Shown in pieces: positions 9,695 to 23,999 of a stretch of DNA of 64,000 nucleotides (its first letter is position 1; each line of letters opens with the position of its first letter). The DNA comes from Minisyncoccia bacterium (lineage in GTDB: Bacteria; Patescibacteriota; Minisyncoccia; UBA6257; 2-01-FULL-56-20), in assembly GCA_049997875.1 (NCBI GenBank), contig JBEKRC010000003.1:115687-179686 (forward strand), in the 5' to 3' direction. A model generated the notes under the pieces. It was not told the DNA's origin. It worked only from the letters and a program-made list of their open reading frames with translations, and did no database searches. The position numbers and the translations under genes were made by a program.

Positions 9695-10819
9695 ATGAAG
9701 AAGAAAAAAAATCTCGATTGGTTTCCGGTTTTGGCGGCGCGTGTTTGCGCGCTCGCCGCGCTGGGGGTTGGCGGTGCGTTTGTGGCAATGTATCTGGCAA
9801 ACTCCCTGCCAACGCATACAGCCTTAGCTGGCACAAACAAATGTCCAGCGGGGCCCTTTTGGACACTTGACCCAGGAATCTCCGTAAGCGGTTCCTTCAG
9901 TTCAAATACGCTCACGTTTTCCGGTACCGCACAGGGAGGCGAACAGTCGTGTAACTGCGGCGATTTCAGTTACGGTACGCCGGTAACTATCGGATCGGAC
10001 CAATACACTATTACAAATTCGTCCGGCACAGTAGTGGCTCGATCAGCTTTGCCAAATTGGTCCCTTGCGCAGGGCCCTGCGAGCAGCCTATGCACCAGCG
10101 TCTCTCCCGCTAATGAAGATAGTTATAGTTTCGGGCCCGGTACGGTGAATACCTCCGGCTGGGCACCGGGCGTTTATACGCTCACCGTGACGATTGGTGA
10201 TTCCTGCGGAGGTCCATTTACAAACTCGGGCTATACATGCCCTCCACCGCCAACGGACACTTATGTTTTCACCGTGACGGGCGGCACTATCTCTGTGCTG
10301 TCGCAGAATGCCGCGGGCAATCCACTAAGCTCATCGTGGGGCTTCGTCGGCCCTCTCGGCGGCCCCTGCGAGGGCACTCCCCTTTGTTCGGGCACCTCCG
10401 GCATCTACAACAACCAGCCGCCCGGCACCTATTCCCTATCTCCCGGCAGCGCCCCTTCGGGTTACAGCGGCTATACCATTTACTTAAACAACAACTATAA
10501 CCAAGCGTGTTCTGTCACCTCCTGCGCGGGGACGCTCCAGAACGGCGGCACGTTAACTTTCACTATTAAGTGGAATCTGATAGAACCGGCCATCGCCGCG
10601 TCGTGGAACACCACATATCTTGTGCAATCCATCGCAACCACCGTGCCGGCCGGGAGCAATCTGAACATCTCCGATTACATAAGAAACATCGGGCCGACAA
10701 ATTCGTCGTTAGATTGGATTTGTAGTGTGCACGGGCCAGCGGGATGGACTGGAACGCTGAACTATGGTCTATGCCAACAAGGCCAGCCCTTGAGCGGCGG
10801 CGCGTCGCCGTTCCAGTAA
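9695..10819 (+). CDS. Secreted Cys- and Gly-rich hypothetical protein
   Basis: Signal/TM N-terminus; many Cys and Gly. Confidence 0.7.
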   Translation: MKKKKNLDWFPVLAARVCALAALGVGGAFVAMYLANSLPTHTALAGTNKCPAGPFWTLDPGISVSGSFSSNTLTFSGTAQGGEQSCNCGDFSYGTPVTIGSDQYTITNSSGTVVARSALPNWSLAQGPASSLCTSVSPANEDSYSFGPGTVNTSGWAPGVYTLTVTIGDSCGGPFTNSGYTCPPPPTDTYVFTVTGGTISVLSQNAAGNPLSSSWGFVGPLGGPCEGTPLCSGTSGIYNNQPPGTYSLSPGSAPSGYSGYTIYLNNNYNQACSVTSCAGTLQNGGTLTFTIKWNLIEPAIAASWNTTYLVQSIATTVPAGSNLNISDYIRNIGPTNSSLDWICSVHGPAGWTGTLNYGLCQQGQPLSGGASPFQ

Positions 10820-10911
10820 AAGCAAAAGGTTGCAAAAGCAAAGGGCCCCGACCAAAAGGAAGGGGCCCGAAGCTTCAATCTCAATTATCAAAGAACAGTG
10901 TGCTATCGCGG

Positions 10912-12834
10912 TTACTGCGGTGATGGCGTCCAATCTGCGAGCGCGGCCTGCGTGCAAGTTGTGGTGCCGCACATAGTCGTACCATCAGAGCCGGTTCCCG
11001 CAAAGACATAGTGCACAATGCCCTGCTGGTCCGCGTACGACGCGAGGTCGTTCCAGACGGTGACGGATCCGCCGGGCGTGTTGGTTTGGTCCGCGCGCAT
11101 CGTCCAGAGTTCCTGTGCGGGACGAGAGGTACCGGAAACGGAGATGGCGCAGGCGTCGGTCTTCGTGAGATCGGCGCTGCCAATGCGAGAGCATGACCCT
11201 GCCACCGTGAGTCCAACCTGGCTTCCCAAATTCAGGATTGAACTCATGGCAATGTTTACGCTTGAAGCGCCCGTGCCGGTGCCATTGTCTCCCCACCAGA
11301 CGTACAGAATGGTCTGCGACCAGTTGCTGGGGTTATCAGGATTGACGGCAATGGTGAAGTCCTGGTTCGTGGCGCTCCAATACGTTGAACATCCCCACAA
11401 CACCTGGCCGGTCCCGCTGTTGAACAACCGGCAATTGTAACTGTGATTCCCGGCAGCAACCTGCCCGGACATAAGCGGCGTGCCGGTGAGCGAATAAGGG
11501 CCTTCGGCCCAACCATGTATCAGGTTGCCGCCTTTTTCCCCCGTGCCGATCGTCCAGAGATGATCGGGGAACATAGCGACTCCGGTTACTGGATTTGTGA
11601 AGTTCGGGTCGTCATCATAGCCGTTCACCGCGAACGGGTCTTGTTGCATTACTCCGCTTGCGGAATTCAAAACCACTATCCAGCCGCCGCTGCTGTACCA
11701 GCCACTTTGCGGATCCTGCAAGCGGTAGTCGGAGTTCGTTCCGACATAGAGAGCGGAACCAAGGATGTTGATGGTTTTTGCTTCGGTGCGCACGCCGGGC
11801 CCGGAGGTAGGCAGTTGGAAATCGGCGAGCGCGAGAACATCGAGTGTGTTGCTCGCCAAGCCAACTTGCCAAACCATTGCGGAGCGGGTTGCGGTGCTGT
11901 TGGGATCCAATTGCTGCCAGCCCGCCGCGTAGGCAACCATGCCGTCGGCGCTAATCACTATTTGGTTGATTTGGCACGCCGTCGGCGAGTTGCTCCACTT
12001 ATCGAGCAAGTTGTGAGCGTTGTCGTAAAGTGCAAGCCCACAACTTGTTGCGGTAGCGTCTGCCATAATGCGCAACGCACCAAGAGCGGTAACCGCCACG
12101 GCCGTTGCCTGGTCGTTAACGTTCTTGCCATCCACTTGGGGAGTACGGTATGTGAGGTGGTTGAAGTTCACCACGAGCGTAGCCCCGTTCAGGCTGCAGC
12201 CGGTCACCCCGTTCGGGGCGTAGGTCCAACCCGAGCCACTGATGGTAGTGCTGCTTTGTGTTTCGCCAGTCACAGTGGTACCAGAAACGGTGGCCACCGC
12301 GGTGTTGCCGGAAACGAAGCTGCCGCCCGTGAAGCCCGTGGGCGCCGAGGCGGTGCTTGTTCCATTCACCGTAATGACGGCGGGCGTGAGCACCACCACA
12401 TTGCCTGTAGTAGGACAAGGACCAGCGCTTACCACGTACTTCACAGTCGCGGTCTGCGGGCTGTTGTCGGCGTTGGGATCAGCGACGCTGACCGTACAGG
12501 TCGACGTGCCGACGCTTGCCGGAGCAGCCACGGTAACCGTGAGCGCAATGCTGCCACCCACGGCGACACTACCAGAGGTCGGTGCCACATAGCACCAACT
12601 CTGGCCGGCGGCCACTGTCCAATTTAAGCTGGCCGTGCCGGTGTTCTCTACCATCAGGGTCTGCCCCGACGGTGCCGTTCCTCCCATAATTGCGTTGAAA
12701 GTGAGTGTCATGGGAGAAAGAACGATGTTAGGCTGGGGCAGCTGCCGAGTAGTCCCTCCCCCGCCGCAACTGGTCAAGGTCAGCCCTAGGAGGCTGACCA
12801 GAACCACCAATAAGCACTTCTTTTCTGTATTCAT
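10912..12834 (-). CDS. Surface lipoprotein with Ig-like (BACON/Big_2-like) domains
   Basis: LTLTSC lipobox; domains with the pattern NTGTASLNW...W...P.SG also found in the 20758 giant protein. Confidence 0.75.
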   Translation of the reverse strand: MNTEKKCLLVVLVSLLGLTLTSCGGGGTTRQLPQPNIVLSPMTLTFNAIMGGTAPSGQTLMVENTGTASLNWTVAAGQSWCYVAPTSGSVAVGGSIALTVTVAAPASVGTSTCTVSVADPNADNSPQTATVKYVVSAGPCPTTGNVVVLTPAVITVNGTSTASAPTGFTGGSFVSGNTAVATVSGTTVTGETQSSTTISGSGWTYAPNGVTGCSLNGATLVVNFNHLTYRTPQVDGKNVNDQATAVAVTALGALRIMADATATSCGLALYDNAHNLLDKWSNSPTACQINQIVISADGMVAYAAGWQQLDPNSTATRSAMVWQVGLASNTLDVLALADFQLPTSGPGVRTEAKTINILGSALYVGTNSDYRLQDPQSGWYSSGGWIVVLNSASGVMQQDPFAVNGYDDDPNFTNPVTGVAMFPDHLWTIGTGEKGGNLIHGWAEGPYSLTGTPLMSGQVAAGNHSYNCRLFNSGTGQVLWGCSTYWSATNQDFTIAVNPDNPSNWSQTILYVWWGDNGTGTGASSVNIAMSSILNLGSQVGLTVAGSCSRIGSADLTKTDACAISVSGTSRPAQELWTMRADQTNTPGGSVTVWNDLASYADQQGIVHYVFAGTGSDGTTMCGTTTCTQAALADWTPSPQ

Positions 12835-13040: not shown

Positions 13041-13490
13041 ATGGACTGCATCTTCTGCAAAATAGCAAAGGGAGAGGCGCCCGCCCACACGATATGGGAA
13101 GACGAAAAACATTTGGCATTCCTCTCCATTTTCCCCAATACCGAAGGCTTCTCGGTGGTGGCGACGAAGGAACACTTTCCGAGCTATCCCTTTGATCTCC
13201 CCGACGAGGTACTGGTCGGGCTGGTCTTGGCGGCAAAGAAAGTCGCGAAGCTCTTGGACGAGAAGCTCAACGACGTCGGGCGGACCGGCATGATTTTTGA
13301 AGGGTTCGGCGTTGACCATACGCACGCGAAACTTTTTCCCATGCATGGCACGAAAACGCCGGAATGGAAACCGCGTCAATCAAACGTTGATAAATATTTT
13401 GAGACGTACGAGGGCTATATTTCGTCGCACGATTACAAGCGTGCCGATGATGAAAAGTTGGCGCGGCTCGCAGAGAAAATAAGGGACTGA
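13041..13490 (+). CDS. HIT family hydrolase
   Basis: GVDHTHAKLFP histidine triad. Confidence 0.9.
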   Translation: MDCIFCKIAKGEAPAHTIWEDEKHLAFLSIFPNTEGFSVVATKEHFPSYPFDLPDEVLVGLVLAAKKVAKLLDEKLNDVGRTGMIFEGFGVDHTHAKLFPMHGTKTPEWKPRQSNVDKYFETYEGYISSHDYKRADDEKLARLAEKIRD

Positions 13491-13644: not shown

Positions 13645-14586
13645 ATGAAAAAGAACTTAGAATATTTTAAGTCCCTTAGAAAGGCGAATTGCCATTTGCA
13701 CATAACCGGTTCTCTCAGACCACGAGACCTAAGACGTCTGGCAAAGATCGCTCATCGCGATATAGCCCAATACGAACCGCTTGAGGAACATATGAAATTT
13801 TATGATCCAGTAATTTGGTCAGCAGCAAAAGAGATAACCTCCACCGCGGAGGGCCTTTCCGAGGCAATTAAAATTATATTGACGCGCGAGGCAGAAGATA
13901 ATGTTGCGTACGTTGAGTTTACAATAAACCCAGCAGGCATGGTGCGTCGCGGCATGACAAGCCAAGATATCGTCGTATCAATTAAAAATGGTTTTGCACA
14001 TGGAGATACTCTCGGAATCACGAGCAAAGTAAAATTCGGCGTAAACCGAAAAGATGGCCCTGATTCAGTTGCCATTGTAAAAGACGTATTTAACGCGACG
14101 CCCGAGAGCTGGAGAGTGTGTATCGACCTTAATGGTGACGAAAGAATGTTCCAGACATCAGATTTTATTAGGCCTTTCCTGCAATTGGCTTCCGAAAACA
14201 TCCCCGTAAGCATCCATGCCGGTGAATACATGGGTCTGTGCAACTCATTAAAAGACGCGATTACAATGAATCCTCGGAGAATTGCTCACGCTATCGCAGT
14301 CAACGAAGACGAAAGCATAATAAATTCTTTTATTGAGAACAACATAATTTTAGAAGCGTCGCTGATGTCAAATTTAAAAACCGGCGCCATAAGTGACATA
14401 ACGAAACATCCGATTAAAAAGTTTATCAACTCCAACGTTCCGATCGTTTTGGGCAGCGATAATCCAGCTTTTTTCGGAACAACCGTTAGCTCAGAGCTAG
14501 TATGTCTCGCTAACGCAGGTGTAGGTATAGATGAAATAGAAGAATTAAACCAGCGCGTATTTAAGCTGGTCGATATGACGAAATGA
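13645..14586 (+). CDS. Adenosine/AMP deaminase-family metallohydrolase
   Basis: CHLHITGS (HxHLxGS), SIHAGE and GSDNP motifs typical of the adenosine deaminase family. Confidence 0.75.
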   Translation: MKKNLEYFKSLRKANCHLHITGSLRPRDLRRLAKIAHRDIAQYEPLEEHMKFYDPVIWSAAKEITSTAEGLSEAIKIILTREAEDNVAYVEFTINPAGMVRRGMTSQDIVVSIKNGFAHGDTLGITSKVKFGVNRKDGPDSVAIVKDVFNATPESWRVCIDLNGDERMFQTSDFIRPFLQLASENIPVSIHAGEYMGLCNSLKDAITMNPRRIAHAIAVNEDESIINSFIENNIILEASLMSNLKTGAISDITKHPIKKFINSNVPIVLGSDNPAFFGTTVSSELVCLANAGVGIDEIEELNQRVFKLVDMTK

Positions 14587-15695
14587 TCGCTCCCGCACCA
14601 TTGGCTGAAATAGAGAAAGCCCTAAACGCCAAGGTGATTAATATTGAGAGGGTAACCAAAATCTACGGCTCCGATGCAGATAGTTTTCTGATCAAGGTGG
14701 TTTCTGCCAAAAACAAAATTACTATGTATTTTCTTAAATTTGAAGAAAAGAATCGCACTAACCAAGAAATAGCGGGGATTCGCTTCATTGAAAAATTTCT
14801 ACCTACCCCAAAGATTATTGTTACCTCGCGCGGAAAATCACTTTCTCCAGGATGGATTCTATTCGAACACGTTCAGGGCAAACTTATGGCCGAAAAATAT
14901 CTCAAGATTAAAGATGAAAATGAATTTGAATCGTTTTGCAAGCTTGAACAACGAAAGGAAAAACTCCTTGGGGTCCTTTACTCTCAACCAACAATCAAAA
15001 TGAGTTATAACGACTATATCAAATTGCCGGCAAACCAATTGTTTCGTGAAAGACTATGTGGGAAGAGATATGGGGAGTTCTTCGGAAATAAACAAGGCAA
15101 TGTATCGCAGTATTTTGATCGTCGCATCTCAATCAATAAATGTAACTTCCCCTCCACGGTAAATCAGATTTTTGAATCAATTAGAAAAAAATATTCTTCG
15201 CGAAAGCATGAGCTAGTTACCGCCCTCATGGGTCAGGGCGATGCTCACCACGGGAACATTATCGTGAACAAAGGGATAGAATTCATTGATAACGAGTACG
15301 CGGGGTTTATGCCACCCTTTATGGAATTGGCCAAGCCTTACTATAACGATTTTATTGGCACGTTATTTTTCCACCATCACCAAACCCTAGAGCAACATTT
15401 TCAGATTCGTAGCTTCAAGGATACGGGCACAAAACTTCTATTCGAAATCAAATCTCCTCAAAAAATCACCAGGCCTATCAAAATAACTCAGATCAAATTA
15501 TTTGAAAGGAAAAAGTGGGTGAATGAGGCGACGGATGATTTCTTGTCTCTAAACGACTACTTAGTTCTTTCCCATGCCCTGACGAAAAATCCAAATACTT
15601 ATCCGCCGAAAACCAAATTGTTGTTTTTGACTTTCGTCGCAATATTGGCTCAATTTGACCCACTGGATCCGGAATCCCTATACCGCCTCTTCTAA
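14583..15695 (+). CDS. Phosphotransferase of the APH/choline-kinase fold
   Basis: GDAHHGNIIV catalytic loop and a downstream IDNEYAG; 4-nt overlap with the upstream deaminase. Confidence 0.7.
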   Translation: MIAPAPLAEIEKALNAKVINIERVTKIYGSDADSFLIKVVSAKNKITMYFLKFEEKNRTNQEIAGIRFIEKFLPTPKIIVTSRGKSLSPGWILFEHVQGKLMAEKYLKIKDENEFESFCKLEQRKEKLLGVLYSQPTIKMSYNDYIKLPANQLFRERLCGKRYGEFFGNKQGNVSQYFDRRISINKCNFPSTVNQIFESIRKKYSSRKHELVTALMGQGDAHHGNIIVNKGIEFIDNEYAGFMPPFMELAKPYYNDFIGTLFFHHHQTLEQHFQIRSFKDTGTKLLFEIKSPQKITRPIKITQIKLFERKKWVNEATDDFLSLNDYLVLSHALTKNPNTYPPKTKLLFLTFVAILAQFDPLDPESLYRLF

Positions 15696-16975
15696 GTAGA
15701 GTGTCTTCGGTTGCGACTAAATCTCTCAACCTTCCTAAATACGTATGCGCCGAACTTCTCAATGAAACGATCAGCTTGCATCACTAGCTCAGAGATGTCT
15801 TTTTTATCGTTGAGATTGTGCCAGTTCTGGATCGTTTCCTGAGCAAGTTTTAGAAATGTAAAGTTGTATGAGGCGAAAGTTTTTCTCGCTTGATCCAGAA
15901 GGGGGGTTTCCTCGGAGTACTCGCCGAAATATTGGATAGCCAACTTAACGATCGTAAGAGACGCCCTAATTTCTCCTTTAAGTATTTCTTTCAGTCCTAT
16001 CGCCTCATCAGCAGTAAAACGCCCCGCAGCAGTGAGATCTCTCCTGTTCTTTCTAAAGAACATCCCGATGTTTGCCAAGCTGTACTCTCTAGCTTCCTCT
16101 GCGGTAGGAGTATAGAACTTGCTGAATCGTCCCTTTTTTACATATACAAGCCTGTCAGGATGGCGCTTCAGCTCCACCAATGCCTGAAGCGTCTTGCCAT
16201 CCAACGATACAATAGGAAGATTGGGATGTACGACTTCCTTTGTAGTGACCACATTGATGCCATAGTGAATCTTGGTTTTTCTCTCTAGCTTCCTTGTCAT
16301 TCCAGCAATATTGTTCTTTGTCTTGATATTCATTCTCTCTACCACTAACAACAGATCTACATCGCTCCATCCATCGCGATATACTTTTCTAGCAGCGCTT
16401 CCGGTCATGACGATAGCCGCCAAGTTTGATGCAAGAGTTCCTTTCAATGCTTTAACCGCACTTGTAATAACCCTGTCCAATCTTGGACCCCCGCAGGGGT
16501 GTCTGTCGAGCAGAAAGAGGCGCCGTGCCTCGACCAGATTATCCCTATCAAAGGTAATCTTTTTCAGAGCATCTTGAAACGCAAGCCACCTCGCCGCGAC
16601 GAACTCCTCGGCCCTAAGGGGAAAAATTTTCTTTTTATTAGTTGAACAAAACACGTACAGATGAACACTCTTTTTGTGAGAAAGGATATCTCCACTAAGA
16701 GTAAAGGTATAGTTACTAATCCCTACCTTGCCTACAAGCTGCGGATTCACATTTAATGAAAGTTCTTCTTTAACTTCCCTGACTGCGGCAGCTTCCGGAC
16801 TCTCTCTCCTTTTAAGGTGTCCCTTCGGAATCACGTATTCCCCTCTCAAATTTTTAAGCAACGCCACATATAATCGATGGCCTTGTGGTCTCTGAAAAAA
16901 CAAAAAACCTCCGGCTGATTCATGCATCATGCTGTTCCCCTTCTTTTTGATTTTGTCATCTCTACTGAAATTCAC
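15692..16975 (-). CDS. NUDIX hydrolase fused to a Pol-beta-type nucleotidyltransferase
   Basis: N-terminal Nudix box GHLKRRESPEAAAVREVKEELSL; central GSAARKVYRDGWSDVDLLLVV nucleotidyltransferase motif; helical C-terminus. Confidence 0.8.
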   Translation of the reverse strand: MNFSRDDKIKKKGNSMMHESAGGFLFFQRPQGHRLYVALLKNLRGEYVIPKGHLKRRESPEAAAVREVKEELSLNVNPQLVGKVGISNYTFTLSGDILSHKKSVHLYVFCSTNKKKIFPLRAEEFVAARWLAFQDALKKITFDRDNLVEARRLFLLDRHPCGGPRLDRVITSAVKALKGTLASNLAAIVMTGSAARKVYRDGWSDVDLLLVVERMNIKTKNNIAGMTRKLERKTKIHYGINVVTTKEVVHPNLPIVSLDGKTLQALVELKRHPDRLVYVKKGRFSKFYTPTAEEAREYSLANIGMFFRKNRRDLTAAGRFTADEAIGLKEILKGEIRASLTIVKLAIQYFGEYSEETPLLDQARKTFASYNFTFLKLAQETIQNWHNLNDKKDISELVMQADRFIEKFGAYVFRKVERFSRNRRHST

Positions 16976-17065: not shown

Positions 17066-18055
17066 TCAGCAACGGTAGCGTGCGATCATCGCATCAACGG
17101 CGGCATAAAGATCTTCCAGAGTGCCAGAGTTGTCGATGACTTCTCCGGCAATCTCCTTAAGGGCTGGAATGCCTGATTTTGCTTTGATCTCATCGCGCGG
17201 CAGGAGAATCAACTTCGCCTGTCCGAAGTCCGAAAGCCCTTCCCGAATCATCTGGCGCTGAAGGCGTATCTCAAGTGGAATTTCAACGTAGACGATGCAG
17301 AAGTGGTCAGCCAGCCGCTGCCTCAGATAGAGTCCCAGTCCTCCTCCATAGAGGCTCTCAATGGACGCCATAGACGTTTCGAGGGTCTCCATCTCTTGGA
17401 GAAGTTCATCGAGAAAGACATCCCATAGGGCATATGGATCACTTGCTTCGCCCTTGTTCACCCATCCCCTGAGGTCCTCATTGGAATCTGGCGCTAGTCT
17501 TTCCTTAACCTTTCCAAAGAGGCGTACGATCTTGAGACGCCTAACGCCCCTCGAATCAAGGTACTTGCCCACGGTGCTCTTGCCACACTCGCTCATACCC
17601 GTGAGTGCAAATACCATCTTGCCTTGAAAGTTCTTCTGGTTTTTCATCCTCTCCTCCCTAAAGAGATCATCCATCAAACAGAGTTCGCGTTCGGCTGAGC
17701 GCAAAGAATCCGGCACGTGAGCAACATTCTTGATCCAATTCTCGGAATACTTCCCCCGCATGCCGTTAGGATATCGCCCAATAATATCCCATTTCACTTT
17801 GCTGACGGCTCCGATTCCTTCCACCCTCAACAGCAGGACGGTTCCCGAAGAAACCCAATTGACTACCTCTGTGAAATAAATTTCCTCTCGCTCCTCTCCA
17901 TACAACTTCTCTACTAGGTGCTGGGGAAGCTGCATCCGAACGCTGTCGGTCACTCTCAGGCCGTTCAGGCTTAGGTTAAGGAGGATTTCCCCAACCAAGC
18001 CCTTAGCGATGCCGTCCGGTTTTACTATAACAAGCGTCTGCTCAAAAAGCATCAT
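17066..18055 (-). CDS. Nucleoside diphosphate kinase-like domain fused to a P-loop (NMP/dephospho-CoA kinase-like) domain
   Basis: N-terminus LVIVKPDG...GEIL is NDK-like. C-terminus has the Walker A GMSECGKSTVGKYL. AAGGAGGA RBS before the ATG at 18055. Confidence 0.7.
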   Translation of the reverse strand: MMLFEQTLVIVKPDGIAKGLVGEILLNLSLNGLRVTDSVRMQLPQHLVEKLYGEEREEIYFTEVVNWVSSGTVLLLRVEGIGAVSKVKWDIIGRYPNGMRGKYSENWIKNVAHVPDSLRSAERELCLMDDLFREERMKNQKNFQGKMVFALTGMSECGKSTVGKYLDSRGVRRLKIVRLFGKVKERLAPDSNEDLRGWVNKGEASDPYALWDVFLDELLQEMETLETSMASIESLYGGGLGLYLRQRLADHFCIVYVEIPLEIRLQRQMIREGLSDFGQAKLILLPRDEIKAKSGIPALKEIAGEVIDNSGTLEDLYAAVDAMIARYRC

Positions 18056-18139
18056 GGGGATCCTCCTTCTAGCCAATATTCAGATGTTTATGAACTATAA
18101 ATCTATAAAAGCACGAAGACGGTGTCCTGTCAAACCATT

Positions 18140-18943
18140 TTATTTCTTTGCTAATACCACCCAAATTGAATAACGGAAGAATTTGAATGGGTCACATCCC
18201 TTTATGTTGCCGACAACTTGAGGAATTGAGAAGAAATTGGCTGCCACCTTATTGTCGTCAGGGATCATGCTCTTTAGCTCGAAGATTGTCGGCAGATGAG
18301 CATAGCCGTCGGGAGCCCCTAAAACTTTATTGTTTTTATACACAATATCGCCCGGCAAGAGGTTTGAATATTCTTTTCCAAACAACTTACAACCCACCAT
18401 CATTAGCCGTCGCCAGATGTCCCGCAGGATATTCTTTAGTGGCACAAGGAGACCGCGGCCAACGTATAGTTTATTGAAACTTTCCACAAAAACAATACCG
18501 TTCGGTTTTATGACTCTTAACATTTCAGCTATTGCCTTTTTCCTCTTTGCAAACGTTGCTACGGCGTTAATGGAAAATCTCGGGCAAAACACATAATCAA
18601 AAAATTCGTCCGGAAATGGGATGGCAGTCATGTCCCCCTCAATAAACTTCGCATCCCGGGCACCCTCATTAAATGCTTTTTTCTTTGCCTCCTGTACGGC
18701 CTGAGGCGTTATATCTATCCCTGTCACATTAAATCCGTGCAGCGCGGCGTTCACTGAAAACCTTCCCGATCCGCAACCGAGATCAAGGATCTTTGCGCCG
18801 CGAGGGAGATCGTCTAATATTTTCCTCTCAACCTTACGAAGAGGTGCTGCCGCATAGTACGAGGTTTCACCCGCATAATGGGCAATATTTAAATTTTTTA
18901 TTCTTTTGTAATATTTTTCTTCGTCAATCGCTTGGCGGGTCAT
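18140..18943 (-). CDS. Class I SAM-dependent methyltransferase
   Basis: ILDLGCGSGRFS motif I. Confidence 0.85.
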   Translation of the reverse strand: MTRQAIDEEKYYKRIKNLNIAHYAGETSYYAAAPLRKVERKILDDLPRGAKILDLGCGSGRFSVNAALHGFNVTGIDITPQAVQEAKKKAFNEGARDAKFIEGDMTAIPFPDEFFDYVFCPRFSINAVATFAKRKKAIAEMLRVIKPNGIVFVESFNKLYVGRGLLVPLKNILRDIWRRLMMVGCKLFGKEYSNLLPGDIVYKNNKVLGAPDGYAHLPTIFELKSMIPDDNKVAANFFSIPQVVGNIKGCDPFKFFRYSIWVVLAKK

Positions 18944-19087: not shown

Positions 19088-19633
19088 ATGAAGCTTTTAA
19101 TCCTTTATGGGCCTCCGGCAACGGGAAAATTGACGGTGGCGAAAGAATTGTCGGCGCTGACCGGCTATCCCCTTTTCCACAATCATCTCGTTGCCGATCT
19201 TGCATCATCCATCTTCCCTCTTGGCACCAAAGAATATGCCGCATTGTCGGAAGCAGTCCGCCTTTCAACCATCAGGGCGGCGGCGAGAAGTAGCGTACCG
19301 GGAATGATTGTCACGTTCGCCTACGGCGTTGAGACCCTCGGCGGCAAAGACGATGATGCCCTTCTTAAAAGAATGAGCCGTATCGTTAAGAGCGCGGGCG
19401 GAAAAACTTATTTCGTAAAATTTTCCGCTTCTGATGCGGCGCTCCGAAAACGCATCACGGCCACCGCAAGGAAAACATTCAAAAAGTTGAGAAGTTACAG
19501 GGCCCTACAAAAGCTGCGAGTCAGATACCGCATGGACGCGTCCGTACCGTTCGCGAAAAGCATTGTGATCAACACCACAAGCATTACCCCGAAGTCAGCG
19601 GCCCGGATGATTATGAGGGCAGTTCGGTTGTAA
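19088..19633 (+). CDS. P-loop ATPase/kinase-like protein
   Basis: GPPATGKLTVAKEL Walker A. Confidence 0.7.
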   Translation: MKLLILYGPPATGKLTVAKELSALTGYPLFHNHLVADLASSIFPLGTKEYAALSEAVRLSTIRAAARSSVPGMIVTFAYGVETLGGKDDDALLKRMSRIVKSAGGKTYFVKFSASDAALRKRITATARKTFKKLRSYRALQKLRVRYRMDASVPFAKSIVINTTSITPKSAARMIMRAVRL

Positions 19634-19652: not shown

Positions 19653-20153
19653 ATGTCGAGTGCCGGAGAAAAACCCAAGAGCAAAGCGGTCGGTTGCTTC
19701 CTTGAACACGAGGGCCAGTTTTTGATATTGCAGCGGCGCCCCGAAGAACATCAAGGCGGAAAGTGGGGCTTGCCGGCCGGCGGGGTTGAGCAAGGAGAAA
19801 CCGAAAAAGAGGCCGTCATCCGGGAGGTGCGCGAGGAAACGGGATTTTTAATTCCGCCGGCGAAACTGGAATTCCTGCGGGAAATCGTATTTGAGTTTCC
19901 CGAAAAAATAACCGACTTTTTCGCCTATCGCGTAAATCTTGATTCAAAAATTGCTGTCGCGCTTGATTCACACCATCAGGCCTACGCGTGGGTTACCGGA
20001 AAGGAGTGTTATGCGCGGGATGATCTCATCAAAGGCGTTCACGGCACGCTGGAGAAAACGAGGTACGCGCCAAACGTCGCTCATCACCGAGATCGCAAAA
20101 AACATTCCAATTTCCCGCGGGATGAGATTAAAAAATCATTAAAGAACCTTTGA
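19653..20153 (+). CDS. NUDIX hydrolase
   Basis: GGVEQGETEKEAVIREVREETG Nudix box. Confidence 0.85.
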   Translation: MSSAGEKPKSKAVGCFLEHEGQFLILQRRPEEHQGGKWGLPAGGVEQGETEKEAVIREVREETGFLIPPAKLEFLREIVFEFPEKITDFFAYRVNLDSKIAVALDSHHQAYAWVTGKECYARDDLIKGVHGTLEKTRYAPNVAHHRDRKKHSNFPRDEIKKSLKNL

Positions 20154-20757: not shown

Positions 20758-23700
20758 ATGTACTCAATGGATAAAAGGCATTTTGTTCTCATTGCCGCCG
20801 CTCTCGTAGTGCTAGGCTTCGTTTTGATTTCTCCTCGTTCTGCCTTGACTCAAAGTTCTCAAGGGGATGGCAGCATTTCTCTTTCCAACGTCGTGAGCGG
20901 CACTTATACGATCGTGGTCACGGGGCAGGACCCCTCCGGCAGCTCCGTCGGCACGACAACGCTAACGGTGACCGTGACCACGCCGCCCTCCTGCCCCACC
21001 TCAAGCAATACCGTCACCCTCACGCCTTCCACGATCACGGTCGGCGGGACGAGCATCGCCTCGGCTCCCGCGGGCTTCACGGGCGGCAGCTTCTCTTCTA
21101 ATAACTCCTCGATAGCCAGCTCCCTCCAGGTGAACCCCGCCCCCACGGCCCACATCGTCCTTGCCCCCGCAAGCTTTTCCTTCTCTGGCGTCTCGGGCGG
21201 GGCGACGCCCGCGGGCAAGACCATGGCTATAGAGAACACCGGCACGGCGACCCTGACCTCCTGGACGGCGACCATCGCATCCTCCACAAGCTGGTGCCAC
21301 GTGAGCCCGGCATCGGGGAACAACGTTGCGGCGGGCGGTTCCCAGAACGTCACGGTGTCGGTGGATGCGCCCACGAACACCGGCGCCTTCTCCTGCACTA
21401 TCACCGTCGCCGGCAATGCCGACAACAGCCCGCAGAATGCGACCTACACGGTGACGGCGCCCAGCATCTCTCTTTCCCCCCAAAGCTTCTCCTTCTCGGG
21501 CGTCTCGGGCGGGGCGACGCCTGCCGGCCAGACCATGGCCATTACGAACACCGGCACGGCGACCCTGAACTGGACGGCGTCAGGGGTGCCCGGCAAGACG
21601 GGCACCTGGTGCCACATAAGCGATGCCTCGGGCACCGTTCCGGTGGGCAAAAACTGGCAGGAGAGCGAGCTCGTCACGGTGACGGTGGACGCGCCAACGA
21701 ACATAGGGACCTTCACCGACTGCGGCATCCGCATCACCGACTCCCATGCCGACAACAGCCCGCAGGATGCCACGATCACCTACACGGTGACGGCACCCCT
21801 CCCTCCCTCCTGTCCCACCTCAAGCAACGCCGTCACCCTCACGCCTGCGACCATCACGGTCGGCGGGACGAGCATCGCCTCCGCTCCCACGAGCTGGACG
21901 GGCGGCAGCTTCCTTTCTAGTAGCTCCTCGATAGCCAGCGTTTCCGGCACCACCGTGACCGGCGTCGCCGCGGGCAGCGCCACAATCAGCGGATCGGGAT
22001 GGAAGGCCCCCAACGGGGCGACGGGCTGCAGCTTGAGCGGGGCCGCCCTCACGGTGACGGGGCAGCCCACGCTTGTCATCTCCCCGCCATCGACGTCCAC
22101 CACGGTGGGAGGCACGGCCTCGTTCACGGCCTACTATGATCCTGACGGTTCCGGGCCACAGCCACAGCAGAACGTGACGGCGAGCGCAAGTTGGTCCTCC
22201 TCTTCTTCCACGATCGCGAGCTCGCAGGGAAGCGGCCAGTTCAAGGGGGTGAAATCGGGCACGGCAACCGTGAAGGCTATCTACGGAGGCCTTACGGCGA
22301 CAGCCATCCTGAATGTCAATGCCGTGGGCACGCCGGACTTCTCCCTCACGGTTTCCCCCCCGAGCCAGTCCATCATGCAGGGCACAAACGGCACCTACAT
22401 CGTGACGGCGTCCAGCTCGGGTGGGTTCAGCGGTTCCATCAATCTTTCCGCCACCAATCTTCCGTCAGGCGTGACCGCGACATTCTCCCCCGCCAGCATC
22501 ACGCCGGGCAATTCCTCCAATCTCACCCTGACCGTGGGCAGCGGCGTGCTCCCGGGCGCGTATACCTTCTACGTCAAGGGCACGTCGGGGTCGCTGATCC
22601 ACAGCTACCCGGTGGGGCTCACGGTCACCGCCGCCCCCACAGCCCATATCGTCCTTGTCCCCACAAGCTTCTCCTTCTCGGGCGTCTCGGGCGGGGCGAC
22701 GCCTGCCGGCCAGACCATGGCCATCAAGAACACCGGCACGGCGACCCTGAACTGGACGGCGTCAACCATATATGGCTGGGACCAGTTGAACCCAACCTCG
22801 GGGAACGTTACGGCGGGCGGTTCAAAGAACGTCGCGGTGACGGTGAGCCCGCCTTCGAACGTCGGGATCTTCCCCGATACTATCACCGTCAGCGGCAATG
22901 CCGACAACAGCCCGCAGCAAGCCTCCGTGACGTACACAGTGACAAGTTCCTCGCCGCCCACCTCGCCCTCGCCCACTCTTTCCCTATCCATCGCTCCGGA
23001 GGAGATCGCGCTCGGCCAATCAGCGTCCCTCGTCTGGTCAACGGCGAATGCGACTGCCTGCACCGCCTCCGGCAACGACCCGACTGAATGGTCGGGGTCG
23101 CAAGCGATAGGACAGAACCAGCAGGCTGTCATGTCGCCTTCCCCAGTGGGGACCTATACCTACACCCTCACCTGCACCGGCCCTGGCGGGAGTACGGCGC
23201 AGTCGGCGACCCTCGTGGTAGACCCCGGTTACGTCGGCGGCCCCACGCCATTTGGTTGCACATGTACGGAAGTTTCAGACCTTAGCGAAGTCACCTGTCC
23301 TCCCAATTGTCCCTATCCGTCGCTCGCCGCCTGCCAAGCGGCATGTTCAGCCTCCAATCCTCCCGGTCCCTCCAATCGGCTTACTATCTCCCCCGCAAGT
23401 CTATATCTTTCTGTTGGCGGCCAGAGCGGCAAATTCACGTTGACGTACAATGGCATCGACGTAACTACCGCCGCCACCTGGACCGCCGGCCAACACACTA
23501 CGGTATCAAATGGTGTGGTAACGGCAGTCTCATACGCCGTGTGGGACCCTATCATGGCGAACTACCAAGGAAACTGGACGGAGGGTATTGTTTACATATA
23601 TCAGTCGCCATCCGGTCCGTCTGGGCCGTCCGGCCCGTCCGGGCCCACATGCCCGGGTGGAAATGGCTGCCCGCCTCCGCCCTCCTGCACCTTCACCGCC

Positions 23701-23988
23701 AGTCCTTCGGAGATCATCGCGCCGCAATCAGCAAACCTCATCTATAATTGCAGCCATGTGACCACCTGCAGCATCACGGGATCCGACGGTTCAACCTACC
23801 CTGTTTCGGTGAGTCCCTCCGACCGTGCGAACGGCACCCGGGCGATCGCGCCAAGCGCGGACACCTCCTACACCTTGAGTTGCTACGGCGAGGAGGGATC
23901 TCCGTACAGCAACGCGGCCTACGATTCGGTCACGACCATTCAAATCAAAGTCAACAACAATCCCCATCTGCACGAGGTCAATCCGTAA
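20758..23988 (+). CDS. Giant secreted surface protein (1076 aa) with repeated Ig-like (Big_2/BACON-like) domains and a PSGPSGPSGPSGP linker
   Basis: Signal peptide; repeated modules of about 100 aa; Cys-rich C-terminal domains. Confidence 0.8.
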   Translation: MYSMDKRHFVLIAAALVVLGFVLISPRSALTQSSQGDGSISLSNVVSGTYTIVVTGQDPSGSSVGTTTLTVTVTTPPSCPTSSNTVTLTPSTITVGGTSIASAPAGFTGGSFSSNNSSIASSLQVNPAPTAHIVLAPASFSFSGVSGGATPAGKTMAIENTGTATLTSWTATIASSTSWCHVSPASGNNVAAGGSQNVTVSVDAPTNTGAFSCTITVAGNADNSPQNATYTVTAPSISLSPQSFSFSGVSGGATPAGQTMAITNTGTATLNWTASGVPGKTGTWCHISDASGTVPVGKNWQESELVTVTVDAPTNIGTFTDCGIRITDSHADNSPQDATITYTVTAPLPPSCPTSSNAVTLTPATITVGGTSIASAPTSWTGGSFLSSSSSIASVSGTTVTGVAAGSATISGSGWKAPNGATGCSLSGAALTVTGQPTLVISPPSTSTTVGGTASFTAYYDPDGSGPQPQQNVTASASWSSSSSTIASSQGSGQFKGVKSGTATVKAIYGGLTATAILNVNAVGTPDFSLTVSPPSQSIMQGTNGTYIVTASSSGGFSGSINLSATNLPSGVTATFSPASITPGNSSNLTLTVGSGVLPGAYTFYVKGTSGSLIHSYPVGLTVTAAPTAHIVLVPTSFSFSGVSGGATPAGQTMAIKNTGTATLNWTASTIYGWDQLNPTSGNVTAGGSKNVAVTVSPPSNVGIFPDTITVSGNADNSPQQASVTYTVTSSSPPTSPSPTLSLSIAPEEIALGQSASLVWSTANATACTASGNDPTEWSGSQAIGQNQQAVMSPSPVGTYTYTLTCTGPGGSTAQSATLVVDPGYVGGPTPFGCTCTEVSDLSEVTCPPNCPYPSLAACQAACSASNPPGPSNRLTISPASLYLSVGGQSGKFTLTYNGIDVTTAATWTAGQHTTVSNGVVTAVSYAVWDPIMANYQGNWTEGIVYIYQSPSGPSGPSGPSGPTCPGGNGCPPPPSCTFTASPSEIIAPQSANLIYNCSHVTTCSITGSDGSTYPVSVSPSDRANGTRAIAPSADTSYTLSCYGEEGSPYSNAAYDSVTTIQIKVNNNPHLHEVNP

Positions 23989-23999
23989 ACGGTGCGTTA

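What the first reader, a model, noticed from the sequence alone, without database searches (positions are those of the whole stretch)
15692..16975. NUDIX hydrolase fused to a Pol-beta-type nucleotidyltransferase
A single 427-aa protein has an N-terminal Nudix box and a central minimal-nucleotidyltransferase motif GS-x10-DVDL, followed by a helical domain. Nucleotidyltransferase plus nucleotide pyrophosphatase in one chain suggests synthesis-plus-hydrolysis control of a nucleotide signal, or a proofreading mechanism. Related domain pairs occur in signalling-type defence systems and in toxin-antitoxin (MNT-HEPN) contexts. I do not know this exact fusion as a characterised family.
Basis: partly seen in the sequence, partly recalled or inferred. 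Interest (0 to 1): 0.6.

Follow-up and report, generated by a model that had tools for sequence, protein, structure and literature searches.

The report
Nudix hydrolase fused to ANT-like nucleotidyltransferase
A real but uncharacterised two-enzyme fusion from an ultra-small (Patescibacteria) bacterium, in which a nucleotide-pyrophosphate-cleaving domain is joined to a nucleotide-transferring domain built like an aminoglycoside-resistance enzyme; it sits in a conserved small-molecule operon, not in a toxin-antitoxin or phage-defence system.

Summary
ORF 15692-16975(-) encodes 427 aa with a complete Nudix box (G52-L74), a Pol-beta motif (G192-S193-x11-D205-V-D207) and a helical C-terminus. Both Pfam hits pass their gathering scores.

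The carboxylate that acts as catalytic base in AadA (E87) is missing. The family has invariant G239 and near-invariant N241 there.

The family is rare: 42 clusters below 1e-30 among 1.84 billion representatives. It occurs in Patescibacteria and on one apparently archaeal contig.

The NTase nearly always neighbours a small-molecule kinase-like gene (APH/choline-kinase type, or an unknown 324-aa family). A SAM methyltransferase and an NDK-P-loop-kinase fusion are usually nearby. The same Nudix lineage is fused either to this NTase or to a soluble GT2 glycosyltransferase.

Best reading (inferred): the kinase makes X-phosphate, the NTase makes NDP-X, and the Nudix domain cleaves that bond. A defence or TA role is not supported. 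I rate it a new variant of known kinds, of moderate interest.

The parts
15692..16975 (-). Complete ORF (427 aa plus stop), the Nudix-NTase fusion protein
   Evidence: It is 100% identical to P0001, annotated 'NUDIX domain-containing protein [Minisyncoccia bacterium]'.
16505..16927 (-). Nudix hydrolase domain (about residues 17-157)
   Evidence: Pfam NUDIX 9.6e-14. phmmer against the PDB: CT771 1.3e-8, Aquifex Ap4A hydrolase 1.9e-5. Foldseek: 3i7u E 5e-12, target-normalised TM 0.85.
16754..16822 (-). Nudix box G52-x5-E58-x7-R66-E67-V-x-E70-E71-L-S-L74
   Evidence: Conserved in the fusion family and in the Nudix-GT2 relatives.
16478..16504 (-). Inter-domain linker (residues 158-166), modelled with low confidence
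   Evidence: pLDDT below 50 for residues 159-164; whole-chain pTM 0.59 against 0.82 for the C-terminal module alone.
16106..16489 (-). Pol-beta-type nucleotidyltransferase alpha/beta lobe (residues 163-290)
16352..16402 (-). hG[GS]-x11-DhD motif: G192 S193 ... W203 S204 D205 V D207 L
   Evidence: Invariant in 24 and in 34 aligned family members. Aligns to AadA G35 S36 S46 D47 D49.
16244..16270 (-). Strand beta3 (I236-H-Y-G239-I-N241-V-V-T244), where the third catalytic carboxylate should be; here Gly/Asn
   Evidence: AadA E87 aligns to G239. More distant relatives carry D/E at column 241 or D at column 239.
16178..16204 (-). Family-specific invariant motif L-D-G260-K261-T-L-Q264-A-L
   Evidence: Function unknown.
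15695..16105 (-). C-terminal helical lobe (residues 291-427): HEPN/KNTase-C-like fold with no conserved Rx4-6H. Invariant K344 aligns with the ATP-phosphate ligand R192 of AadA.
14583..15695 (+). Convergent partner gene: APH/choline-kinase-like small-molecule kinase (370 aa) with HGDAHHGN and IDNE motifs. Its stop codon overlaps that of the fusion gene.
   Evidence: It lies next to the NTase in every APH-type locus.
13645..14586 (+). Adenosine-deaminase-family gene (313 aa), an accessory member of the cluster
   Evidence: Pfam A_deaminase 3e-39. Co-conserved in L004, L005, L006, L012, L013.
13041..13490 (+). HIT-family gene (149 aa), an occasional member of the cluster
   Evidence: Also present in L006.
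17066..18076 (-). NDK domain fused to a P-loop (dephospho-CoA-kinase / NMP-kinase-like) domain, immediately upstream and co-directional. Gene callers start it at 18055 (329 aa).
18140..18943 (-). Class I SAM-dependent methyltransferase (267 aa), the first gene of the co-directional trio

Best explanation
The protein is a soluble bifunctional enzyme belonging to a conserved small-molecule operon of ultra-small symbionts (Patescibacteria, and at least one apparently archaeal contig).

Proposed mechanism:
1. The neighbouring kinase-like enzyme (APH/choline-kinase type, or the alternative 324-aa family) phosphorylates a small substrate X (a sugar, cyclitol or nucleoside-like compound), giving X-phosphate.
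2. The C-terminal AadA-like module binds NTP-Mg through G192/S193, S204, D205, D207 and K344.
3. That module transfers NMP onto the phosphate of X-P, giving an NDP-X compound. A phosphate nucleophile needs no general base. This would explain why the family has replaced the catalytic-base Glu of the aminoglycoside enzymes with Gly/Asn while keeping every NTP/Mg ligand.
4. The N-terminal Nudix domain (Ap4A-hydrolase-like, catalytic box intact) hydrolyses that same class of pyrophosphate bond, NDP-X to NMP + X-P. This sets the level of the activated compound or proofreads it.
5. In sister operons the same Nudix lineage is fused to a soluble GT2 glycosyltransferase, which would consume NDP-X.
6. 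The upstream NDK-P-loop-kinase fusion recycles the released NDP/NMP to NTP, and the methyltransferase modifies X.

What is shown: the domain identities, the fold relationships, the motif conservation, the loss of the third carboxylate, the gene-neighbourhood conservation and the fusion-partner swapping.

What is inferred: the identity of X, the direction and chemistry of each step, and the coupling of the two domains.
For: Domains and motifs.

Nudix domain nearest to Ap4A/Ap6A hydrolases, CT771, and MutT1/Rv2985 diadenosine polyphosphatase.

NTase plus helical lobe match AadA/ANT(9) as one unit:
- Foldseek TM 0.55-0.61.
- hhalign of a 101-sequence profile against a verified AadA sequence: probability 86.6%, E 4.5e-6, 225 columns.

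NTP/Mg ligands are conserved but E87 aligns to G239/N241. E87 is the catalytic base of AadA, and the E87Q mutant no longer adenylylates but still hydrolyses ATP (PMC6065190).

Neighbourhood:
- The NTase lies beside or within a few genes of an APH-like or 324-aa gene in about 20 distinct loci. A methyltransferase and NDK-P-loop gene are usually present, and the flanks differ between genomes.
- The APH-like and 324-aa genes are mutually exclusive at the same position.
- The Nudix lineage (44-58% identity) is fused to the NTase, fused to GT2 with the NTase as an overlapping next gene, or is a separate neighbouring gene.
- The APH-like family keeps the HGDxHxGN/IDNE kinase motifs, and some members hit choline-kinase Pfam.
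- No cluster protein, including Nudix-GT2, has a TM-like segment.

Chemical logic (established knowledge): Nudix enzymes cleave pyrophosphate bonds, not the phosphodiester made by O-nucleotidylylation. The two domains can therefore act on one compound only if the NTase product is NDP-X or NpnN.

Precedents for kinase plus NTase making an activated NDP-X, from my own knowledge: LicA/LicC, AmgK/MurU, ValC/ValB.
Against: - No substrate is identified.
- I know of no Pol-beta-fold enzyme characterised as an X-phosphate nucleotidylyltransferase. Known sugar-1-P and phosphocholine NTases use other folds.
- The near-invariant E247, six residues after N241, could be a displaced general base. That would permit ordinary O-nucleotidylylation.
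- The window-type operon has no glycosyltransferase. Instead it has an adenosine-deaminase-family gene and a HIT gene, which points towards nucleoside/nucleotide chemistry rather than sugars.
- The nearest characterised Nudix relatives act on dinucleoside polyphosphates rather than NDP-sugars.
- The 324-aa family has no detectable similarity to any kinase.
- The relative orientation of the two domains is not predicted with confidence (pTM 0.59).
Confidence: 0.38

Rival explanations
1. Dinucleoside-polyphosphate cycle. The NTase module transfers NMP onto the terminal phosphate of a second nucleotide, making Ap4A-type NpnN (possibly methylated by the neighbouring methyltransferase, possibly used as an alarmone or an RNA 5' cap). 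The Ap4A-hydrolase-like Nudix domain destroys it. This would be synthetase and hydrolase in one chain, as in bifunctional Rel enzymes.
For: The Nudix domain's best characterised relatives are Ap4A/Ap6A hydrolases, CT771, Rv2985 diadenosine polyphosphatase and RppH. A phosphate acceptor again explains the loss of the catalytic base. The window-type operon is nucleotide-centred, with HIT, an adenosine-deaminase family gene and NDK-NMP-kinase.
Against: The sister operons fuse the same Nudix lineage to a GT2 glycosyltransferase and add a DHQ-synthase-like sugar-phosphate cyclase, which points to sugar/cyclitol chemistry. This scheme has no obvious role for the small-molecule kinase that always accompanies the NTase. 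Substrates of Nudix subfamilies are poorly predicted from sequence.
Confidence: 0.15
2. Ordinary ANT-type O-nucleotidylylation. The NTase module adenylylates a hydroxyl of a small molecule (an antibiotic, xenobiotic or biosynthetic intermediate), alongside an APH-type phosphotransferase. The Nudix domain does a separate job, either nucleotide-pool sanitation or regulation of the neighbouring NDK, as reported for the mycobacterial MutT1 Nudix domain.
For: The best structural matches are aminoglycoside/spectinomycin adenylyltransferases. The partner is an APH-family kinase. A DHQ-synthase-like cyclase in sister operons could make a cyclitol. The near-invariant E247 might act as base. The MutT1 Nudix domain dephosphorylates NDK-Pi (PMC11784022), and here the Nudix gene directly follows the NDK gene in most loci.
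Against: The catalytic-base position is Gly/Asn, and the equivalent E87Q change abolishes adenylylation in AadA. The ANT(9)/(3'')(9) substrate determinants W112, D182 and H/N185 are not conserved. Persistent fusion or adjacency of Nudix with the pathway enzymes (NTase or GT2) argues for a shared substrate. NCBIfam ANT models score far below their cut-offs (16.7 against 340 bits).
Confidence: 0.2
3. The NTase module is a catalytically dead, nucleotide-binding regulatory or scaffolding domain that controls the Nudix hydrolase or assembles the operon's enzymes.
For: The canonical third carboxylate is lost throughout the core family.
Against: G192, S193, S204, D205, D207, K220, K261, Q264 and K344 are invariant over 34 sequences at 35-62% identity. 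The module also exists as a free-standing 257-aa protein, which is the commoner form. This pattern is typical of an active site under selection.
Confidence: 0.1
4. A fused MNT-HEPN-type toxin-antitoxin, or a CBASS-like signalling defence module with a Nudix signal-degrading domain.
Against: No conserved Rx4-6H. The two lobes match AadA as one enzyme much better. No effector gene is present. The conserved neighbours are metabolic-type enzymes and the flanks are housekeeping genes. CD-NTase structures give Foldseek TM of at most about 0.3.
Confidence: 0.03

Closest known systems
AadA / ANT(3'')(9) and ANT(9) aminoglycoside adenylyltransferases (PDB 7uy4, 5g4a, 6fzb, 6sxj, 6xxq)
   Different: Only 13-15% identity. 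Catalytic base E87 is replaced by G239/N241. The spectinomycin/streptomycin determinants W112, D182 and H/N185 are absent. It carries its own invariant LDGKTLQAL motif, is fused to a Nudix domain, and sits in a metabolic operon rather than on a resistance element.
Nudix Ap4A/Ap6A hydrolases (Aquifex aq_158 3i7u, Chlamydia CT771 4ilq, Thermus Ndx1 1vc8) and the mycobacterial MutT1/Rv2985 Nudix domain
   Same: Best sequence and fold matches of residues 17-157. Complete catalytic Nudix box and the PKGH motif preceding it.
   Different: 21-29% identity. Substrate untested. The penultimate Gly of the box is Ser. It has a conserved 17-residue N-terminal extension and is covalently joined to an NTase (or, in relatives, to a GT2).
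NadM-Nudix bifunctional NMN adenylyltransferase / ADP-ribose pyrophosphatase (NCBIfam PRK05379 family)
   Same: Functional analogy: a nucleotidyltransferase that makes a pyrophosphate-linked dinucleotide, and a Nudix hydrolase, in one chain.
   Different: The NTase there has the HIGH-motif Rossmann-like fold and is N-terminal. There is no homology to the NTase module here. The fusion protein (protein 1) has no PRK05379 hit; those models hit only the separate Nudix gene at 19653-20153 (protein 8), and weakly.
MNT-HEPN (MntA-HepT) toxin-antitoxin pairs
   Different: Here the two lobes form one chain, there is no HEPN Rx4-6H RNase motif, and there is no TA gene arrangement or context.
Kinase-plus-nucleotidyltransferase activation pairs (LicA/LicC for phosphocholine, AmgK/MurU for MurNAc, ValC/ValB for cyclitols). 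Recalled from knowledge, not tested here.
   Same: An APH/choline-kinase-fold small-molecule kinase encoded next to an NTase, with a transferase (GT2 in the sister operons) downstream. This is the pathway logic I propose.
   Different: In those systems the NTase has the GlmU/RmlA-type fold, not the Pol-beta fold. None includes a fused Nudix domain or an NDK-kinase fusion.

Membership tests
Nudix hydrolase superfamily | Nudix box GX5EX7REUXEEXGU with the catalytic Glu residues, on an alpha/beta/alpha Nudix fold | tested here: met
   G52-x5-E58-x7-R66-E67-V-x-E70-E71-L-S-L; only the penultimate G is S. Pfam 52 bits against 21.1. Fold match to 3i7u, target-normalised TM 0.85.
Nudix Ap4A/ApnA hydrolase subfamily | Hydrolysis of dinucleoside polyphosphates; a conserved Tyr about 16-18 residues after the box (rule recalled from the literature) | tested here: inconclusive
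   The best hits are ApnA hydrolases, and a conserved Tyr lies 15 residues after the box (Y89; consensus 'YxF'). Activity is not testable here.
Pol-beta-type nucleotidyltransferase superfamily | hG[GS] motif followed after 9-13 residues by [DE]h[DE]h on strand 2 | tested here: met
   G192-S193-x11-D205-V-D207-L, invariant in 34 sequences. Pfam NTP_transf_2 27.6 bits against 21.
Pol-beta-type nucleotidyltransferase superfamily | Third catalytic carboxylate (h[DE]h) on strand 3 | tested here: not met
   Strand 3 reads I-H-Y-G239-I-N241-V-V. G239 is invariant, and N241 is invariant or nearly so in the core family. More distant relatives have D/E at column 241 or D at column 239.
ANT(3'')(9) / ANT(9) aminoglycoside adenylyltransferases | Two-lobed NTase plus helical-domain architecture | tested here: met
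ANT(3'')(9) / ANT(9) aminoglycoside adenylyltransferases | Catalytic base Glu-87 and substrate determinants Trp-112, Asp-182, His/Asn-185 (PMC6065190) | tested here: not met
   E87 aligns to G239. W112 is unaligned. D182 aligns to D323, which lies in a non-conserved, low-pLDDT loop. N185 aligns to R337. NCBIfam ANT_9 scores 16.7 bits against a cut-off of 340.
HEPN domain (as RNase toxin) / MNT-HEPN TA | Conserved Rx4-6H catalytic motif in the helical domain; separate cognate MNT and HEPN genes | tested here: not met
   No His is invariant or nearly invariant in the helical lobe. The regex hits fall in the query's unconserved tail. From my reading of the alignment, a subset of the standalone homologues has an 'RIIDQWH' stretch that the query and its closest relatives lack. 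The protein is a single chain.
CD-NTase / CBASS or other signalling defence | cGAS-like fold with three acidic residues; an adjacent effector gene; a defence-island context | tested here: not met
   Foldseek to CdnE/CdnC gives TM of at most about 0.3 and E of 0.01 or worse. PADLOC gives only motif-level hits. The neighbours are metabolic-type genes.

The most novel reading that the evidence does not exclude
The conserved operon is a self-contained make-modify-break cycle for a previously unknown nucleotide-linked compound specific to ultra-small symbionts (CPR bacteria and DPANN-like archaea). Its parts are the kinase, a Pol-beta NTase lacking the general base, Nudix, a methyltransferase, the NDK-NMP-kinase fusion, and optionally GT2/cyclase or deaminase/HIT. 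The compound could be, for example, a methylated dinucleoside polyphosphate used as an alarmone or RNA 5' cap, or an NDP-activated cyclitol/nucleoside analogue. The NTase would be the first Pol-beta-fold enzyme shown to nucleotidylylate a phosphate acceptor.
Probability: 0.15. Interest if true: 0.8.

Novelty: new variant of a known kind. Interest (0 to 1): 0.45.

Why it matters
Patescibacteria and DPANN archaea cannot make nucleotides de novo, and most of their conserved gene clusters have no assigned function.

This cluster is small, soluble and sharply defined, and it recurs across distant lineages with different flanks. It should therefore be directly testable by heterologous expression.

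If the NTase module really uses a phosphate acceptor, it would extend the chemistry known for the AadA-like branch of the Pol-beta superfamily. It would also explain why a whole subfamily has given up the catalytic base.

If instead the protein makes and destroys a dinucleoside polyphosphate, it would be a dedicated synthase/hydrolase for a class of molecules whose dedicated synthesis is still debated.

If neither holds, the result is still useful. It removes this architecture from the list of candidate TA or defence modules and corrects the automatic 'MutT/8-oxo-dGTPase' annotation.

Tried and rejected
- **Defence/TA reading.** PADLOC scan of all eight cluster proteins gave only generic motif-level hits. 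No conserved Rx4-6H was found. Rejected.
- **Narrow-profile hhalign (A3) against AadA.** It aligned only as far as residue 73, so it could not place E87. Replaced by a 101-sequence profile. MAFFT and hhalign both put E87 on G239, whereas strand register suggested N241 to me. Either way no carboxylate is present.
- **Sequence and profile searches of the PDB.** The APH-like kinase and the 324-aa family gave nothing significant. My motif-level impression that the 324-aa family resembles HPr-kinase P-loops is therefore unsupported and is not used.
- **Pfam/NCBIfam for the 324-aa family.** No hits.
- **Foldseek against afdb50.** Intended to look for named examples of the fusion, but the library was unavailable.
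- **Homologue search with the Nudix domain alone.** It returned only three standalone Nudix proteins, limited by the word index. It was not informative about fusion partners.
- **Literature searches.** Searches for the fusion, the cluster, and CPR/DPANN NDK fusions found nothing specific.
- **Promoter/terminator scan.** Counts were no different from shuffles.
- **Ordinary aminoglycoside-resistance ANT plus APH pair.** Considered and set aside as the leading view, because the catalytic base and the substrate determinants are missing and because of the co-conserved NDK/methyltransferase/Nudix/GT2 genes. It is kept as a rival explanation.
Full report

Yes. The ORF is at 15692..16975 on the minus strand, 427 aa, with a GTG start.

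The GTG is the first start codon after an in-frame TAA. The 17 residues before the Nudix core align with the N-termini of homologues, which begin at the same point.

Pfam finds two domains, both above the curated cut-offs:
- NUDIX, residues 41-147, 52 bits, E 9.6e-14.
- NTP_transf_2, residues 185-241, 27.6 bits, E 3.8e-6.

The Nudix box is G52-x5-E58-x7-R66-E67-V-x-E70-E71-L-S-L74.

AlphaFold models of the full chain (pLDDT 88, pTM 0.59) and of residues 163-427 (pLDDT 89, pTM 0.82) show three parts:
- a Nudix alpha/beta sandwich;
- a low-confidence linker (residues 159-164);
- an alpha/beta NTase lobe followed by an all-helical lobe (residues 292-426).

The identical protein is in NCBI as 'NUDIX domain-containing protein [Minisyncoccia bacterium]' and on four independent contigs. 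The source organism is therefore a patescibacterium (CPR).

**2. What the two halves are**

*Nudix domain.* By sequence it is closest to Chlamydia CT771 (1.3e-8), Aquifex Ap4A hydrolase (1.9e-5) and Thermus Ndx1, an Ap6A hydrolase. By fold the same proteins lead, together with MutT1/Rv2985 (a diadenosine polyphosphatase) and RppH.

*NTase module.* Residues 163-427 match the aminoglycoside adenylyltransferases as a single two-lobed unit:
- Foldseek E about 1e-5, TM 0.55-0.61 to AAD(9) and AadA.

No His is conserved in it. The scattered Rx4-6H regex hits fall in unconserved positions.

**3. The active site**

I verified an AadA sequence against annotated aadA genes (100% identity). I then aligned it to a 101-sequence profile of the family (hhalign probability 86.6%, E 4.5e-6, 225 columns).

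| AadA residue | Role in AadA (PMC6065190) | Equivalent here |
|---|---|---|
| S36 | contacts the ATP phosphates | S193 |
| S46 | contacts the ATP phosphates | S204 |
| D47 | Mg ligand | D205 |
| D49 | Mg ligand | D207 |
| R192 | contacts the ATP phosphates | invariant K344 |
| E87 | third Mg ligand and catalytic base | invariant G239 (N241 lies two residues on, same face of strand 3) |

In AadA, the E87Q mutant cannot adenylylate streptomycin but still hydrolyses ATP.

In the core family this strand reads G-[IVL]-N. More distant relatives carry D or E at column 241, or D at column 239. That shows this is where the carboxylate normally sits.

The ANT(9)/(3'')(9) substrate determinants W112, D182 and H/N185 are not conserved.

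The module keeps everything needed to bind NTP-Mg, plus its own invariant K220 and L-D-G260-K261-T-L-Q264 motif. It lacks the general base. The near-invariant E247 might substitute, but I could not test this because model coordinates are not exposed.

**4. How common is it, and where**

A profile of the NTase module against 1.84 billion representative proteins finds 350 hits at E below 1e-3, but only 42 below 1e-30. About a dozen of those are roughly 400-aa Nudix fusions; the rest are free-standing proteins of about 257 aa.

In species-representative genomes the family is found in the following:
- Paceibacterota, Shapirobacteria and Levybacteria MAGs;
- a Saccharibacteria-labelled MAG;
- unclassified Patescibacteria MAGs;
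- two MAGs labelled Gammaproteobacteria.

**5. Genomic context: the most informative result**

Gene tables and a tblastn map of about 20 distinct loci show a conserved neighbourhood. Its outer flanks differ from genome to genome (gyrB, nusG, murD, argS, pilM and others).

Operon layouts seen:
- **Window type:** SAM-MTase > NDK-P-loop kinase > Nudix-NTase < APH-like kinase < adenosine-deaminase family (< HIT). Found in the window, L004, L005 and L006 (L012 without the NDK fusion; L013 rearranged).
- **Second type:** MTase > NDK-P-loop > Nudix-GT2 > NTase (overlapping start) > DHQ-synthase-like < unknown 324-aa protein. Found complete in L007 and L018. L015, L017 and L019 show the same downstream genes on short or cut contigs. 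L016 has the cyclase elsewhere, and L009 lacks it.
- **Mixed forms:**
  - L010: Nudix-NTase with the 324-aa gene.
  - L020: Nudix-GT2 with the APH-like gene.
  - L036: separate Nudix and NTase genes beside the APH-like gene.

Four regularities stand out:
- The NTase nearly always lies beside or within a few genes of either the APH-like gene or the 324-aa gene, never both.
- The Nudix domains of the NTase fusions and of the GT2 fusions are equally similar to the query (44-58%). One Nudix lineage has therefore swapped partners within the same pathway.
- Remote NTase relatives at 25-30% identity keep the neighbourhood. One of them is on a contig that also encodes an eIF2-alpha-family protein and is thus probably archaeal.
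- No cluster protein, including Nudix-GT2, has a TM-like hydrophobic segment.

Properties of the partner genes:
- The APH-like family keeps the HGDxHxGN and IDNE kinase motifs. JGI calls it 'thiamine kinase-like', and some members hit the choline-kinase Pfam model.
- The NDK domain is a normal NDK. From my reading of the translation, it keeps the active-site His in 'NVAHVPDS'.
- The NDK's fused P-loop domain weakly resembles dephospho-CoA kinase and archaeal AdkA-like kinases.
- The DHQS-like protein scores below the aroB cut-off and also hits 'AroB-related sugar phosphate phospholyase (cyclizing)'.

**6. Mechanism**

Nudix enzymes hydrolyse pyrophosphate linkages. They cannot reverse O-nucleotidylylation, which makes a phosphodiester. 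(This is established knowledge.)

The recurrent fusion or adjacency of this Nudix lineage with the NTase or with the GT2 is therefore most simply explained if the pathway intermediate is an NDP-linked compound. The proposed steps are:
1. The kinase makes X-phosphate.
2. The NTase module adds NMP to that phosphate, which needs no base. This fits the Gly/Asn replacement of E87.
3. GT2, where present, uses NDP-X.
4. Nudix trims or proofreads it.
5. NDK plus the NMP-type kinase regenerates NTP.
6. The methyltransferase decorates X.

The domain, motif and context statements are shown. Every chemical step is inferred.

My confidence is layered:
- About 0.75 that this is a soluble bifunctional small-molecule nucleotide enzyme of this operon, and not a TA or defence module.
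- About 0.38 for the specific NDP-X scheme.

Rival explanations:

| Rival | Confidence |
|---|---|
| NpnN (Ap4A-type) synthase/hydrolase cycle | 0.15 |
| Ordinary ANT-like O-adenylylation, with Nudix doing pool sanitation or NDK regulation (the mycobacterial MutT1 Nudix domain dephosphorylates phospho-NDK; PMC11784022) | 0.20 |
| Dead, regulatory NTase module | 0.10 |
| MNT-HEPN or CBASS-like | 0.03 |

**7. Comparison with known systems, and novelty**

It works most like AadA-type enzymes on the NTase side and ApnA-type Nudix hydrolases on the other. It fails the membership tests for ANT(9)/(3'')(9) (no catalytic base, no substrate determinants), for HEPN toxins (no Rx4-6H) and for CD-NTases.

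It is analogous to NadM-Nudix, where an NTase and a Nudix domain share one chain, but the NTase fold is unrelated.

No curated family model, defence model or paper in the searchable library describes the fusion or the operon.

I rate it a new variant of known kinds, of moderate interest at 0.45. The domains are familiar and unknown fusions are common in CPR genomes. The conserved operon, the partner swapping and the systematic loss of the catalytic base nonetheless make it a well-defined and testable unknown.

Noticed in passing
window 13645-14586 (+); also L004, L005, L006, L011: The cluster's adenosine-deaminase-family proteins keep the HxH and HAGE motifs but all have 'SDNP' where, as I recall, canonical adenosine deaminases have 'DDP' (second Asp replaced by Asn). 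This may indicate a substrate other than adenosine.
   Followed up: partly
window 17066-18076 (-): Nucleoside diphosphate kinase is fused to a P-loop kinase domain (weakly dephospho-CoA-kinase / AdkA-like). The same fusion accompanies the NTase in most loci, including the probably archaeal contig L033.
   Followed up: partly
L007 9824-10798 (-), L009, L010, L016, L017, L033: An unknown family of about 320 aa replaces the APH-like kinase at the same convergent position next to the NTase. It has invariant motifs FLLHGS and DDGxSTAKTL and no Pfam, NCBIfam or PDB match.
   Followed up: partly
L007 6629-8029 (+) and L009, L015-L018, L020-L022: The same Nudix lineage is fused to a soluble GT2 glycosyltransferase. 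The free-standing NTase gene overlaps its 3' end, and a DHQ-synthase-like sugar-phosphate cyclase often follows.
   Followed up: partly
window 13645-16975 and 18140-18943: The deaminase, APH-like, Nudix-NTase and methyltransferase genes have 40-44% GC, against 54% for the window and 56-63% for the flanking surface-protein genes. The NDK fusion and HIT genes are 51-52%. This could reflect horizontal acquisition or amino-acid composition.
   Followed up: no
window 15692-15695: The stop codons of the convergent APH-like and Nudix-NTase genes overlap on opposite strands. Tight 3'-3' apposition of the NTase with its kinase-like partner recurs in other loci.
   Followed up: no
window 19088-19633 (+) and 19653-20153 (+): A second P-loop kinase-like protein (181 aa) and a second, MutT-like Nudix hydrolase (166 aa) lie just beyond the cluster. 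They are not conserved with it in most other loci.
   Followed up: partly
window 9695-12834 and 20758-26879: The cluster is flanked by very large Gly/Ser/Thr-rich repeat proteins that look secreted (374, 640 [BACON_2], 1076 and 1043 aa), typical of CPR surface proteins.
   Followed up: no
L015, L016 (CAYJQQ010000150.1, CAZINS010000004.1): Two MAGs labelled 'uncultured Gammaproteobacteria' carry the complete patescibacterial-type operon. This suggests mis-binning, mislabelling or horizontal transfer.
   Followed up: no
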